Source of the DNA: a virus | DNA: 22,001 nucleotides | Reading direction: 5' to 3' (one strand) | Virus record (IMG/VR): IMGVR_UViG_3300035152_000026 | Coordinates: 1-22,001 of that record | Shown here: piece after piece, positions 6,885-10,049 of the stretch | Numbering within the stretch: the first letter of the stretch is position 1 | How the letters are laid out: each line of letters opens with the position of its first letter | Translations under genes and position numbers: made by a program | The notes under the pieces: generated by a model | Databases searched by the model: none | The model's input: only the letters and a program-made list of their open reading frames with translations | What the model was told of the DNA's origin: nothing

Positions 6885-7165
6885 AGCTTGCAAGATGGTA
6901 CGAGATCTGACCATTGGCCTGCTTGTTGACGGAGCTTGTTGAGCTTCTCGCAGTACCTGTCACGTGCCCTGTCCACGAGCGTATCAGCTCGAATCTCGAC
7001 ACGTCGTATCGCAGTCGATCGAGCTGCTTGTTCCACGTCTGCGCTGCCGTAGCGTGCAAAAGCCTCTTTGCGTGCTTTGGCACGAAGTCGTGCAGCCTTC
7101 GTCAGGGAGGATTTGTAGGCACGGCGTGCTCGGTGTACAGCGTCCAGTACCTCTTTGTCAGTCAT
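6881..7165 (-). CDS. basic, probably helical hypothetical protein (94 aa)
   Basis: ATGA overlap with the stop of the upstream gene at 7162-7165. Arg/Lys/Ala-rich. Confidence 0.45.
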   Translation of the reverse strand: MTDKEVLDAVHRARRAYKSSLTKAARLRAKARKEAFARYGSADVEQAARSTAIRRVEIRADTLVDRARDRYCEKLNKLRQQAGQWSDLVPSCKL

Positions 7166-7891
7166 CGTGATCCTCTTCGTATGTATCGTGGGCTCGCAAG
7201 AACCTTTCCTCTCAGGTGAGGCTGCAACTCATAGACGTGTTCTATACCTGACGAGGTGTGAAAAACGATCGGTGTACCGTCTGGATAATGCGACTTGTAC
7301 CAGCTGACGCTCCAATCGTTTGACATGAATTTGGCGTCTGCTCGCAGGTTGCCTTCCGATGGAAAACCACCGTACCAGAATTCACGAACGTTCTGCCAGC
7401 CACCTACAGCACGCGCGAACTCTGCGGGAGTAATATCTTCGGCGTGCTCAGTGATGTAATCGATGAGATCGAAGCCCGTCTCCTCGTAGGCTTGTTTAGT
7501 ATGTTCCGGCGGTGGCGACGGACAGTGCCAAGCGAAAGTGTATGCGCCGGGCGTCAACTTCTGTGAACCCGCGGCGTGCAGCCCGTTGTTGATCTTGCAT
7601 GCGCGACGACCCCAGTTGCGAAGCGACACGTCGATCTTCTCAGTGCAGCCGTGCTTCTTCCTCATGCCGTCCATACGCTTGTTGAACGCGACGACGCGCT
7701 TGGCGAACTTGCAGTCGGCTGCCGTCCACTTGCTCGTGGGCTTCGCTTTGAGCTTGGCGAGCTGCGGCAGCCGAGCGCGTGTCGAAGCGAAGCTCGCTTT
7801 CTTCGAGCGCGGATTCTTGTGCCACTTGCGGATTTCCGCCGGTGACATGTTGACGAGCTTTCGGAAGTCGGCGGCGTACGGACAGTGCATG
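7162..7891 (-). CDS. hypothetical protein (about 243 aa)
   Basis: Track ORF 7162..7989. The ATG at 7891 (MHCPYAADF...) is preferred because the conserved leader TTATCCACAGGTGT and three direct repeats lie immediately upstream. No family recognised. Confidence 0.45.
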
Positions 7892-7905
7892 ACTCTCAGT
7901 CTACA

Positions 7906-7936
7906 CCTGTGGATAAGCTGTGGACAAGTTGTGGGT
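7906..7936 (-). promoter_or_regulatory. three helically phased (11-bp spacing) DnaA-box-like direct repeats: TGTGGATAA, TGTGGACAA, TGTGGGTAA (plus-strand reading)
   Basis: Box 1 at 7906-7914 is a perfect reverse-complement TTATCCACA. Boxes 2 and 3 at 7917-7925 and 7928-7936 each carry one mismatch. All three are in the same orientation, 17 nt upstream of the 7891 ATG. Confidence 0.45.
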
Positions 7937-8075
7937 AAGTTCGCGTACTCGTAACCGTGCTGAATTGAGTTGACAGCCGTACCCGGCATGACTACTGTCG
8001 CGTATTGCTAATGGCAACGTGGGTTACCCAAGAACATCTTTGGCTTCTCCGTTGATGGTGAGCAGGACATAACGA

Positions 8076-8150
8076 GGCGCAGCGGGGCGGGGCGCGGCGG
8101 GGCGTGGCGGGGCGTGGCACGGCGAAGTAAGGCAAGGGCGCGTATGCGCA
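8076..8150 (+). repeat. GGCNN pentanucleotide tandem array (about 12 copies, 8076-8135) + conserved box GGGCGCGTATGCGCA (8136-8150): unit A
   Basis: Read directly from the sequence: ggcgc ggcgg ggcgt ggcgg ggcgt ggcac ggcga agtaa ggcaa | gggcgcgtatgcgca. The ATG of 8164 lies 13 nt downstream. Confidence 0.9.
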
Positions 8151-8163
8151 AAAGAGAGACGAA

Positions 8164-8652
8164 ATGGACACAATCGACAAACGAATACGGCACGACGCGA
8201 TCTTTCTCCGGCTTCGAGAGAACCTGTTGTTGAAGGTGAAGCGAGGCGATCTACTCACCTACGAAGAATGCGAGAAGCATCTCGATGGCGACAGCTTTGA
8301 GATTTACCGCCAGCGCGTCAAACGCCACTTTGCCCGTCAAGGAATCGACCTCATTCCCGTGCCAGGTATGGGCTATCGTCTCGCGACGCCGGAACAGCAG
8401 CTCCATGAAACCGGGCCGCTCCACATGCGCAAGGCCATTCGCCAAGGGTCGATGGCGCTGCGAAGCCACGTGACGACACCCGACACGGACTTGAGCACGA
8501 CTGACAAAGCACATCGACAACACGCTATCGAGCGACTGGCCGGAACGTTGGCGAGAGCGAAAGACGACGAGATTCAGCTGTCCCGGAAACTCAAACCAAC
8601 AAACGTGAAGGTTGACGTTCCTCGCTTGGGAAAGAAGCCGGACGAAATGTGA
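8164..8652 (+). CDS. hypothetical protein (162 aa)
   Basis: ATG ORF directly downstream of repeat unit A. Confidence 0.5.
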   Translation: MDTIDKRIRHDAIFLRLRENLLLKVKRGDLLTYEECEKHLDGDSFEIYRQRVKRHFARQGIDLIPVPGMGYRLATPEQQLHETGPLHMRKAIRQGSMALRSHVTTPDTDLSTTDKAHRQHAIERLAGTLARAKDDEIQLSRKLKPTNVKVDVPRLGKKPDEM

Positions 8653-8660
8653 GGAAGACT

Positions 8661-8953
8661 AGCGTGGCGGGGCCGGGCGCGGCATGGCGCGGCAAGGCGA
8701 GGCAGGGCAAGGCATGGCTAGGCAAGGCAAGGGCGCGTATGCGCACAACAGATTTGACAGGGCATGGCAAGCGCGGCGAGGCACGGCAGGGCCGGGCCTG
8801 GCGCGGCAGGGCGCGGCCAGGCTAGGTCTGGCACGGCGAGGTAAGGCAAGGGCGCGTATGCGCACAACAGACAGATTTAACAGAGCGTGGCAGGGCATGG
8901 CCAGGCCTGGCTAGGCAGGGCAGGGCACGGCAAGGCAAGGGCGCGTATGCGCA
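8661..8953 (+). repeat. three consecutive GGCNN-array + GGGCGCGTATGCGCA units (B1 8661-8745, B2 8761-8864, B3 8884-8953)
   Basis: B1 has 14 pentamers, B2 about 18 (with one 1-nt phase slip near 8770), B3 has 11. Each ends ...GG(C/T)AA GGCAA GGGCGCGTATGCGCACAACA. Only B3 is followed by a gene (AAGGAG Shine-Dalgarno site, then ATG 8970). Confidence 0.9.
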
Positions 8954-8969
8954 CAACAAGGAGCTAAAG

Positions 8970-9634: not shown

Positions 9635-9880
9635 GGTGTGGCGCGGCGGGGCACGGCAAGGCCGGGCCGGGCGCGGCATGGTACGGCCGGGCTAGGCGGG
9701 GCTAGGCTAGGCGGGGCGAGGCAAGGCAAGGGCGCGTATGCGCACAACACAACAGGTTCAACGAAGCGAAAGCAGGGCACGGCGTGACGTGGTGTGGCAT
9801 GGCCTGGCCCGGCGAGGCGCGGCGAGGCGCGGCGCGGCGGGGTCGGGCACGGCAAGGCAAGGCAAGGGCGCGTATGCGCA
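9635..9880 (+). repeat. two consecutive GGCNN-array + box units (C1 9635-9744, C2 9776-9880)
   Basis: C1 has 19 pentamers and starts 3 nt after the stop of 8970..9632. C2 has 18 pentamers. Both end GGCAAGGCAAGGGCGCGTATGCGCA. Confidence 0.9.
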
Positions 9881-9899
9881 ATAGAATTGAGTTGACCTA

Positions 9900-10049
9900 A
9901 TGGCGGCACGCACAGAATTGAAGATCGTTACGCTGCGCTTACGCAGTGCAGACATTCGCAAGGCCAAAGCCATCGCCAAACGAGACGGCTTGCCTTATCA
10001 AGTGCTCATCCGACAGTGGGTCGCTGAGAAAGTACGCGAGGAGCGGTAG
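9900..10049 (+). CDS. small ribbon-helix-helix (CopG/BrnA-antitoxin-like) DNA-binding protein, 49 aa. Not in the ORF track (<60 aa).
   Basis: Translation: MAARTELKIVTLRLRSADIRKAKAIAKRDGLPYQVLIRQWVAEKVREER. The beta-strand IVTLRL plus two helices, and a C-terminal GLPYQ.LI...V motif, are typical of RHH antitoxins. The ATG lies 19 nt after box C2. Confidence 0.45.
   Translation: MAARTELKIVTLRLRSADIRKAKAIAKRDGLPYQVLIRQWVAEKVREER

What the first reader, a model, noticed from the sequence alone, without database searches (positions are those of the whole stretch)
7891..7936. Three helically phased DnaA-box-like direct repeats and a leader shared by two unrelated minus-strand genes
TGTGGATAAGC / TGTGGACAAGT / TGTGGGTAAGT (7906-7938) are 11-bp direct repeats. 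The first contains a perfect DnaA box (TTATCCACA on the other strand) and the others differ by one base; all three share orientation and helical face. The 14-mer TTATCCACAGG(C/T)GT recurs at 4531-4544. In both places it lies 17-20 nt upstream of the ATG of a minus-strand gene (7162..7891 and the sulfotransferase 3923..4528). The motif may be a promoter or operator for a regulator that copies DnaA specificity; the alternative is genuine DnaA titration or replication-control sites on a mobile element. The triplet sits about 140 bp from repeat unit A, so the 7900-8160 interval could also be a replication origin-like region.
Basis: partly seen in the sequence, partly recalled or inferred. Interest (0 to 1): 0.6.

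Follow-up and report, generated by a model that had tools for sequence, protein, structure and literature searches.

The report
Phased DnaA boxes over phage promoters
A metagenomic phage carries three head-to-tail binding sites for the host replication initiator DnaA on top of the promoter of one gene, plus a fourth at the same position of a second gene, so host DnaA most likely shuts these genes off; this is a modest new example of a known kind of control.

Summary
Three 11-bp head-to-tail units sit at 7906-7938. On the minus strand they read TTACCCACAAC / TTGTCCACAGC / TTATCCACAGG. The 11-mer TTATCCACAGG recurs at 4530-4540. Two exact copies are found against about 0.007 expected.

The "shared leader" is not a leader. 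The genes of this phage are largely leaderless: a TAnnnT -10 box lies 5-7 nt before the start codon in 12 of 38 genes (p = 3e-10). The boxes therefore lie inside core promoters, at -26..-18 in gene A and -27..-19 in gene B.

The 9-mer plus 2-bp spacer is the known cooperative DnaA arrangement. The same unit forms arrays in at least 119 IMG/VR contigs and matches 268 isolate phage records from unrelated hosts. That points to real DnaA rather than a mimic.

Best reading: host-DnaA operators that occlude two leftward promoters, and possibly a third. This is inferred and no binding was tested.

The origin reading is poorly supported. I found no AT-rich unwinding element, no DnaA-trios, no skew inflection and no initiator gene. 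No relatives conserve the locus.

It is a new member of a known kind, of moderate interest.

The parts
7908..7916 (-). DnaA box 1, TTATCCACA (9/9). With its GG flank (7906-7907) it forms the 11-mer TTATCCACAGG. It lies at -26..-18 relative to the A of the gene A ATG.
7919..7927 (-). DnaA box 2, TTGTCCACA (8/9 to the E. coli consensus; identical to the actinobacterial consensus, from my own knowledge). It lies at -37..-29, and its TTGTCC doubles as a -35-like hexamer 18 nt upstream of the -10 box.
7930..7938 (-). DnaA box 3, TTACCCACA (8/9), at -48..-40.
   Evidence: the same unit TTACCCACAAC forms arrays in L092
7898..7903 (-). Predicted -10 hexamer TAGACT of the leaderless gene A promoter, 7 nt before the ATG.
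   Evidence: inferred, no TSS data
7162..7890 (-). Gene A, 242 aa. It has an N-terminal DUF3140-like domain and a C-terminal domain shared with P0002. It is the first gene of a three-gene leftward operon (7890 to 6546).
4532..4540 (-). Single consensus DnaA box TTATCCACA, with GG flank at 4530-4531, at -27..-19 relative to the ATG at 4513 of gene B.
4519..4524 (-). Predicted -10 hexamer TACGCT, preceded by TGC (an extended -10 element), 5 nt before the ATG at 4513.
   Evidence: inferred
3923..4513 (-). Gene B, 196 aa (JGI aa, starting at 4507). It has a P-loop-like GCPRSGTKY motif. The sulfotransferase assignment is unconfirmed.
1185..1193 (-). Possible third site: TCATCCACA (8/9) at -39..-31 of the leaderless promoter (TACGTT at 1166-1161) of gene 822..1154. 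It may simply be a -35-like sequence.
7970..7998 (+). Rightward sigma70/sigmaA-type promoter candidate TTGACA-N17-TACTGT, the only such match in the window. It starts 29 nt after the end of the third 11-bp repeat unit (7940).
   Evidence: pattern match only

Best explanation
The window is part of a 57-68 kb metagenomic phage genome. Its host uses leaderless mRNAs, which suggests Actinobacteria or Deinococcus-Thermus. The three 11-bp repeats form a head-to-tail array of DnaA boxes: one consensus box and two one-mismatch boxes, each separated by 2 bp. This is the geometry in which host DnaA binds cooperatively. The array covers the spacer, the -35 region and the upstream region (-18 to -48) of the leaderless promoter of gene A. 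A lone consensus box occupies the same spacer position (-19 to -27) in the promoter of the unrelated gene B. When host DnaA occupies these boxes, RNA polymerase cannot bind. Transcription of the two leftward units would then be tied to the amount or nucleotide state of free host DnaA, that is, to the host's replication status. The array may also influence the canonical rightward promoter that starts 29 nt beyond its last repeat unit. Shown: the sequences, their phasing, their improbability by chance, their position relative to start codons, the genome-wide leaderless signature, and the cross-phylum recurrence of the same 11-bp unit in phages. Inferred: that DnaA binds, that the TAnnnT hexamers are the active -10 boxes, and that the effect is repression.
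For: There are two exact TTATCCACAGG copies against 0.007 expected, and 7 boxes with at most 1 mismatch against 2.24 expected. All 8 boxes are on the minus strand. Five of them, at 3 loci, lie within 60 nt upstream of same-strand start codons, a zone that covers only 5.3% of positions. The box-to-ATG gap is 17 nt in A and 18 nt in B. TAnnnT lies 5-7 nt before the start in 12 of 38 genes against 2.8% of all ATG/GTG (p = 3e-10), and the same pattern appears in related contigs. This matches the leaderless promoter architecture described for Mycobacterium and Deinococcus (PMC3898074, PMC4007540, PMC12340547). In E. coli, DnaA binds preferentially to box pairs spaced 2-3 bp apart and represses several promoters (PMC11317965). 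The pattern TTRYCCACA-NN repeated three times occurs in at least 119 IMG/VR contigs, against a rough own estimate of about 4e-4 by chance. There the unit is overwhelmingly TTATCCACAGG. A four-unit array matches 268 isolate phage records, including Streptomyces and Arthrobacter phages. Variation among the three units is confined to box positions 3 and 4 and the 2-bp spacer; TT..CCACA is invariant. The 11-bp period is not a multiple of 3, and homology to relatives starts at the ATG at 7890, so the repeats are non-coding.
Against: There are no binding or transcript data. The host is unknown, so its DnaA-box preference is unknown. No diverged relative of this locus exists: the copies in L001 and L003 are identical, and homologues of gene A elsewhere have no boxes upstream. 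Conservation therefore cannot be tested. A lone box, as at gene B, is often not bound in vivo in E. coli (PMC11317965). DnaA-box arrays in other phages are mostly not promoter-proximal. They tend to sit at genome ends or near terminase genes, so the common function of such arrays may be something other than promoter control. TTGTCC and TCCACA resemble a -35 hexamer, which could by itself explain boxes 2-3 and the site at 1185.
Confidence: 0.45

Rival explanations
1. The boxes recruit host DnaA for replication. The intergenic region 7.9-8.2 kb, or the gene B / TROVE gap, would then be a DnaA-dependent phage origin or an origin accessory site, as in P1 oriR, F, RK2 or lambda.
For: Clustered, phased DnaA boxes are the hallmark of oriC and of plasmid-type origins. 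The most AT-rich 30-mer of the whole window (4572-4601, GC 0.30) lies 32 nt from the gene B box. Streptomyces phage Faust has boxes in a 1.5-kb repeat-rich non-coding region that looks origin-like. The triplet borders a repeat-dense region.
Against: The flanks of the triplet have GC 0.47-0.60 and no unwinding element. No DnaA-trio periodicity is visible on either side. There is no GC-skew inflection at 7.9 kb; the skew is dominated by the G-rich repeats. No initiator, helicase or loader was recognised among the window proteins or in the gene table of the left flank. The DNA next to box 1 is the start of a coding region. The repeat A blocks all point rightward and sit 13-19 nt before start codons, so they look like tandem promoters rather than iterons.
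Confidence: 0.15
2. The boxes bind DnaA, but their purpose is to manipulate or exploit DnaA itself. They could titrate it, act as a datA- or DARS-like element, or tether the DNA, as proposed for the T5 injection-stop DnaA boxes. Under this reading the overlap with promoters is incidental.
For: DnaA-box arrays are widespread in phages. They often lie at genome ends or in direct terminal repeats, or between terS and terL-like genes. Such positions do not suggest promoter control (T5 model in bioRxiv 10.1101/866236).
Against: There are only four good boxes in 22 kb, far fewer than in the arrays of other phages. The site is internal to the contig. The near-identical offset from two start codons (17 and 18 nt) is unexplained by titration.
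Confidence: 0.15
3. A protein other than DnaA binds the repeats. It could be a phage-encoded regulator, for example the divergently encoded 162-aa protein, or a host OmpR/PhoB-type response regulator. That family typically recognises 2-3 direct repeats with 11-bp spacing.
For: An 11-bp direct-repeat periodicity is typical of winged-helix response regulators (my own knowledge). The 162-aa protein contains 'IDLIPVPGMGYRLA', and its model shows a helix-helix-beta-hairpin followed by long helices. A CopG-like 49-aa protein is also encoded nearby.
Against: The 162-aa protein is an orphan. It has no family hit, its model confidence is low (pLDDT 66.6), and it has no significant fold match (best E = 0.16). 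A lineage-specific regulator does not explain why the very same 11-mer forms arrays in phages of many phyla.
Confidence: 0.12
4. There is no dedicated binding function. A slipped-strand triplication of a -35-like promoter segment happens to resemble DnaA boxes.
For: TTGTCC and TCCACA each match TTGACA at 4 of 6 positions. Other promoters in the window have TTGTCA or TTGCCA at -35. Short tandem repeats arise easily.
Against: The two perfect 11-mers lie in the promoter spacer, not at -35, and sit 3.4 kb apart. They are found 2 times against 0.007 expected. The units have diverged only at positions that DnaA tolerates.
Confidence: 0.08

Closest known systems
Closely spaced double DnaA boxes and the low-affinity arrays of E. 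coli oriC (boxes 2-3 bp apart, head to tail)
   Same: The 9-mer consensus, the same orientation, the 2-bp spacers giving an 11-bp period, a strong box next to weaker ones, and a 3' G flank (PMC11317965).
   Different: Here the array lies on a phage and over a promoter. There is no unwinding element and no opposing array.
DnaA-repressed promoters such as dnaA, mioC, rpoH, uvrB and guaB in E. coli
   Same: DnaA boxes lie within or next to the core promoter, so that DnaA occupancy would block RNA polymerase (list in PMC11317965).
   Different: The target genes are phage accessory genes of unknown function. The promoters are leaderless, of the TAnnnT type. Regulation is inferred, not shown.
DnaA boxes of phage and plasmid replicons, and of the T5 injection-stop region
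   Same: Host DnaA boxes carried in clusters on a mobile element (T5: bioRxiv 10.1101/866236; P1, F, RK2 and lambda from my own knowledge).
   Different: Those sit in origins or terminal repeats alongside iterons or inverted repeats. Here there are no iterons of Rep type, no initiator gene nearby, and the location is internal to the contig.
(TTATCCACAGG)n arrays found here in IMG/VR contigs and isolate phages
   Same: The identical 11-bp unit, including the GG spacer. GC, AC and AG spacers are also used.
   Different: Those arrays are usually perfect, have 3-6 or more units, and lie at genome ends or near terminase genes. They show no consistent orientation towards a start codon. The window's array is short, degenerate and abuts a promoter.
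Stoperators of cluster A mycobacteriophages (asymmetric 13-bp repressor sites, from my own knowledge)
   Same: An asymmetric site, 14 nt long here (TTATCCACAGGYGT), found in one orientation next to promoters of an actinophage-like genome.
   Different: Stoperators occur 20-30 times per genome and bind a phage repressor. Here there are two copies in 22 kb and the sequence is the DnaA consensus.

Membership tests
DnaA-box cluster (cooperative DnaA-binding site) | 9-mers that match TTATCCACA / TT(A/T)TNCACA | tested here: met
   Two 9/9 boxes (7908-7916 and 4532-4540) and two 8/9 boxes (7919-7927 and 7930-7938).
DnaA-box cluster (cooperative DnaA-binding site) | Neighbouring boxes in the same orientation, 2-3 bp apart | tested here: met
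   Both spacers are exactly 2 bp. The criterion comes from PMC11317965.
DnaA-box cluster (cooperative DnaA-binding site) | Physical binding of DnaA (EMSA, footprint or ChIP) | not testable with these tools
   The host is unknown and no experiment is possible.
DnaA-box cluster (cooperative DnaA-binding site) | The same unit is used by unrelated elements, as expected for a universal host protein | tested here: met
   At least 119 IMG/VR contigs and 268 isolate phage records across many host genera.
DnaA-dependent replication origin (oriC-like / basal unwinding system) | AT-rich DNA unwinding element next to the boxes | tested here: not met
   GC is 0.47-0.60 in 40-nt windows across 7800-8060.
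DnaA-dependent replication origin (oriC-like / basal unwinding system) | DnaA-trio repeats next to the proximal box | tested here: not met
   No trinucleotide-periodic GAT/TAG-type run on either side, by inspection. The side next to box 1 is the gene A start.
DnaA-dependent replication origin (oriC-like / basal unwinding system) | GC-skew inflection or a nearby initiator or helicase-loader gene | tested here: not met
   There is no sign change at 7.9 kb. No replication family was found among the window proteins scanned, and none appears in the gene table of the left flank. The rest of the 57-68 kb contig could not be read.
Iteron-type origin (Rep-binding direct repeats) | 17-22-bp iterons with a cognate Rep gene | tested here: not met
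   The units are 11 bp and no Rep family hit was found.
DnaA-regulated promoter | Box overlaps the core promoter or the early transcribed region | tested here: met
   The boxes lie at -18..-48 (A) and -19..-27 (B) relative to the predicted leaderless start. The -10 TAnnnT signature is enriched genome-wide. The promoters are predicted, not mapped.
DnaA-regulated promoter | Expression responds to DnaA level or to box mutation | not testable with these tools
   This needs reporter assays or RNA-seq.
OmpR/PhoB-type response-regulator site | Two or three direct repeats at 11-bp spacing plus a cognate winged-helix regulator | tested here: inconclusive
   The periodicity is met. The candidate 162-aa protein is an orphan with a low-confidence model and no significant fold match.
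Stoperator-like phage repressor sites | Many copies genome-wide in a fixed orientation and a cognate phage repressor | tested here: not met
   Only 2 copies of the 14-mer occur in 22 kb, even allowing 3 mismatches. No repressor was identified.

The most novel reading that the evidence does not exclude
The window's boxes may belong to a large and essentially undescribed class of phage-borne (TTATCCACAGG)n DnaA-box arrays. Phages of many phyla would use these arrays to read or exploit the host initiator. In this phage the module would have been co-opted as a sensor of host replication state that gates leaderless promoters and possibly flips a divergent promoter pair.
Probability: 0.2. Interest if true: 0.6.

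Novelty: new member of a known kind. Interest (0 to 1): 0.38.

Why it matters
If host DnaA really gates these promoters, the phage couples accessory-gene expression to the replication status of its host. It would do so using only a few base pairs and no regulator of its own. That would be a compact example of a virus reading a universal cell-cycle signal. The survey done to test this also showed that the same 11-bp DnaA unit forms arrays in hundreds of phage genomes, often at genome ends. My literature searches turned up only the T5 case, so the wider phenomenon may deserve study in its own right.

Tried and rejected
- **Close relatives for conservation.** Megablast of the whole window against isolate phages found nothing. 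Protein-guided scans of IMG/VR and GTDB genomes with gene A found nothing. tblastn of gene A against isolate phages found nothing.
- **Other copies of the locus.** The other metagenome copies (L001, L003) are 100% identical. Contigs with partial homologues of gene A (L005, L007, L009, L194-L196) have no DnaA boxes upstream. Covariation and conservation tests were therefore impossible.
- **Reading the rest of the contig.** Attempts through neighbouring genes gave only gene tables, or about 2 kb of extra DNA.
- **The 15-mer of repeat A in IMG/VR.** It gave only single hits, 47 of 48 loci with one match, which I judge to be chance level.
- **The 162-aa divergent protein as regulator.** There were no homologues. 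The only sequence hit was an insignificant match to SigA region 1.1. The AF2 model has low confidence, and Foldseek against the PDB gave nothing significant.
- **Host inference.** TROVE and phrog_4652 homologues gave mixed hosts.
- **Rfam.** Nothing was found, neither on the whole window nor in the gaps flanking the TROVE gene.
- **Sigma70 consensus scan.** No sites were found, because the -10 boxes are of the TAnnnT type.
- **Megablast with a perfect 33-nt array.** It found nothing; blastn with a 47-nt array did work.
- **Orientation of phage arrays relative to neighbouring ORFs.** No clear bias: 42, 36, 33 and 27 in the four configurations.

Full report
**1. What is there**

The plus strand at 7908-7940 reads TGTGGATAAGC TGTGGACAAGT TGTGGGTAAGT. 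TRF reports period 11 and 3.1 copies. On the minus strand, which is the coding strand of the gene downstream, this is TTACCCACAAC TTGTCCACAGC TTATCCACAGG, followed by TG TAGACT GAGAGTC ATG.

So there are three 9-mers matching the DnaA box TTATCCACA at 8/9, 8/9 and 9/9. They are head to tail with 2-bp spacers. A second perfect box with the same GG flank lies at 4530-4540, in GAGAG TTATCCACAGG CGTGC TACGCT CCTCC ATG.

Chance does not explain it:
- Exact TTATCCACAGG occurs twice against 0.007 expected.
- Boxes with at most 1 mismatch occur 7 times against 2.24 expected, and no shuffle of 100 reaches 7.
- All eight boxes within 1 mismatch of TTATCCACA or TTGTCCACA are on the minus strand.
- Five of them, at three loci, lie within 60 nt upstream of a same-strand start codon, a zone that covers 5.3% of positions.

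**2. What the surroundings are**

The window is an internal piece of a 57-68 kb metagenomic contig that is seen, identical, in several samples. It looks like a phage:
- TROVE/Ro60-like RNA-binding protein (phrog_850);
- phrog_4652 protein;
- peptidase C39 with a ParB-like tail;
- DUF3228 protein;
- many ORFans.

It has no DNA-level relative among isolate phages. The host is unknown.

**3. The "leader" is a promoter**

Listing the 60 nt upstream of every called gene shows a TAnnnT hexamer, often preceded by TG, 5-7 nt before the start codon. This holds in 12 of 38 genes, against 2.8% of all ATG/GTG triplets (p = 3e-10). Related contigs show the same pattern.

This is the known signature of leaderless transcription in Mycobacterium, Streptomyces, Corynebacterium and Deinococcus-Thermus (PMC3898074, PMC4007540, PMC12340547). 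Genes A and B conform:
- Gene A has TAGACT, then 7 nt, then ATG.
- Gene B has TGC-TACGCT, then 5 nt, then ATG.

Taking the A of the ATG as +1, the positions are:

| Site | Position |
|---|---|
| Gene A, box 1 | -26..-18 |
| Gene A, box 2 | -37..-29 |
| Gene A, box 3 | -48..-40 |
| Gene B, single box | -27..-19 |

The TTGTCC of box 2 doubles as a -35-like hexamer with an 18-nt spacer. It is not an untranslated leader.

The start of gene A at 7890 is supported by the JGI call and by homology that begins at residue 2 (A1). The longer ORF reaching 7989 would read through the repeats. An 11-bp period cannot encode a peptide repeat, and the extension has no homologue.

A possible third case is TCATCCACA at 1185-1193. 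It lies at -39..-31 of the leaderless promoter of gene 822..1154. This could simply be a -35-like sequence.

**4. Who binds**

The geometry of a 9-mer plus 2 bp, in the same orientation, is the one in which E. coli DnaA binds cooperatively at oriC and at nearly all in-vivo targets. Most of those targets also carry a G 3' of the box (PMC11317965).

To ask whether the unit is specific to this phage, I scanned IMG/VR for TTRYCCACA-NN repeated three times.
My rough estimate of the chance expectation is about 4e-4.
- The contigs span GC 0.30-0.67.
- The unit is overwhelmingly TTATCCACAGG. Among 294 spacers, GG occurs 199 times, AG 36, AT 20, GC 13 and AC 11.
- The three spacers in the window (GG, GC, AC) are all among these.

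A four-unit array matches 268 isolate phage records, including Klebsiella, Salmonella, Escherichia, Lactococcus, Streptomyces, Arthrobacter, Listeria, Pseudomonas, Vibrio and Microviridae.

A motif shared by phages of such different hosts must be read by a universal host protein. That argues for DnaA itself rather than a mimic encoded by this phage.

The one candidate phage regulator is the divergent 162-aa protein. It is an orphan with a low-confidence model and no significant fold match. That rival cannot be tested further here.

**5. What it does**

Because boxes 1 and 2 cover the spacer and the -35 region of PA, and the lone box covers the spacer of PB, DnaA occupancy and RNA polymerase binding should be mutually exclusive. 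Repression is therefore the most direct reading. It follows the precedent of the dnaA, mioC, rpoH and other DnaA-repressed promoters. The near-identical offsets (17 and 18 nt from box to ATG) in two unrelated genes are hard to explain otherwise.

The only canonical TTGACA-N17-TAnnnT in the window (7970-7998, plus strand) starts 29 nt after the end of the third repeat unit and points rightward. The boxes may therefore sit in a divergent control region. This is a pattern match only.

**6. Why not an origin**

- Forty-nucleotide windows around the triplet have GC 0.47-0.60.
- No DnaA-trio periodicity is present.
- The DNA next to box 1 is coding.
- GC skew shows no inflection at 7.9 kb and is dominated by the G-rich repeats from 8.0 to 10.5 kb.
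- No initiator, helicase or loader family was found in the window or in the gene table of the left flank.
- The six repeat A blocks all point rightward, in groups of 1, 3 and 2 immediately upstream of the genes at 8164, 8970 and 9900. Each block is (GGCNN) repeated 12-18 times followed by AAGGCAAGGGCGCGTATGCGCACAACA. They look like tandem phage promoters rather than iterons.

One point in favour of an origin is that the most AT-rich 30-mer of the window (4572-4601) lies 32 nt from the gene B box.

**7. Caveats**

- There are no binding or transcript data.
- No diverged relative of the locus exists, so conservation cannot be tested.
- Arrays in other phages are mostly not promoter-proximal. They cluster near terminase genes and at genome ends. 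Examples are the right end of Arthrobacter phage Tiff81, the left end of Klebsiella phage ZK1, the Salmonella T5-like DTR, and the gap between terS and a terL-like gene in L045. DnaA boxes on phages may therefore often serve another purpose, such as tethering or titration, as proposed for T5 (bioRxiv 10.1101/866236).
- A lone consensus box may bind poorly in vivo (PMC11317965).

**8. Verdict**

This is a new member of a known kind, namely DnaA boxes acting at promoters of a mobile element. Interest is moderate.

My probabilities:

| Reading | Probability |
|---|---|
| Real DnaA sites (sum of the next three rows) | about 0.75 |
| Promoter occlusion as the main role | about 0.45 |
| Origin or replication recruitment | about 0.15 |
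| Titration or other use of DnaA | about 0.15 |
| Another protein binds the repeats | about 0.12 |
| No binding function | about 0.08 |

Noticed in passing
window 8076-8155, 8665-8750, 8771-8869, 8886-8958, 9645-9749, 9790-9885 (+): There are six blocks of 12-18 pentamer repeats (GGCNN). Each ends in the invariant AAGGCAAGGGCGCGTATGCGCACAACA. All point rightward, in groups of 1, 3 and 2 directly upstream of the genes at 8164, 8970 (with an AAGGAG SD) and 9900. They look like tandem phage-specific promoters with an unusual 5-bp-periodic G-rich upstream array. The 15-mer core has only single hits in IMG/VR (47 of 48 loci with one match), which I judge to be chance level.
   Followed up: partly
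IMG/VR loci L011-L129; isolate phages H19-H58 (e.g. L192 49-93, L193 19-145, L045 7294-7337): Arrays of the 11-bp unit TTATCCACAGG, with 3-6 or more copies, occur in at least 119 viral contigs and match 268 isolate phage records across many host phyla. They often lie at genome ends or in DTRs, between terS and terL-like genes, or in 4-6 kb microvirus-sized contigs. The most frequent neighbouring Pfam families are terminases. My literature searches found only the T5 case.
   Followed up: partly
whole window (e.g. starts at 794, 1154, 1258, 1947, 2718, 11867, 14414, 14648, 14679, 21566): There is a pervasive leaderless gene architecture: (TGn)TAnnnT lies 5-7 nt before the start codon in 12 of 38 genes (p = 3e-10). 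This points to an actinobacterial or Deinococcus-Thermus-type host.
   Followed up: yes
window 7970-7998 (+): This is the only canonical TTGACA-N17-TAnnnT promoter-like site in the window. It points rightward and starts 29 nt after the end of the third repeat unit (7940). It is followed by a 14-codon ORF at 8011.
   Followed up: partly
window 4645-4668, about 6365-6390, and 6449-6472 (+): The TROVE/Ro60-like gene (4727-6349) is flanked by noncoding gaps of about 190 nt. These gaps carry three copies of GCAGTGARG...CGGTTACTTC, and one copy can form a hairpin. They may be Y-RNA/YrlA-like partner RNAs. Rfam finds nothing, even at E <= 1.
   Followed up: partly
window 4572-4601: The most AT-rich 30-mer of the window (GC 0.30), AAAGTTATTTTTCGAGACTGTGGAATTTGT, lies 32 nt from the gene B DnaA box and contains a weak box-like CTGTGGAAT.
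   Followed up: no
window 9900-10049 (+): A 49-aa protein has a weak CopG-antitoxin / ribbon-helix-helix match (E = 8e-4). It may be a small DNA-binding regulator in the repeat-rich region.
   Followed up: no
window 8164-8652 (+): This is a 162-aa orphan protein divergent from gene A. Its single-sequence model shows a helix-helix-beta-hairpin followed by long helices. It has an insignificant similarity to sigma A region 1.1 (5mww, E = 0.95).
   Followed up: partly
window 2327-2367: A near-perfect 17-nt inverted repeat with a 7-nt gap (GAATATTCCGGCCGATC / GAACGGCCGGAATATTC) lies upstream of the gene at 2411. It could be a terminator or an operator.
   Followed up: no
window 7162-7890 (-) and P0002-P0010: Gene A is a fusion of two domains that occur separately elsewhere. 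The DUF3140-like N-terminal domain is 61-77% identical (one at 44%) to proteins that carry GNAT or other extensions. The C-terminal domain is shared with P0002 (L005).
   Followed up: partly
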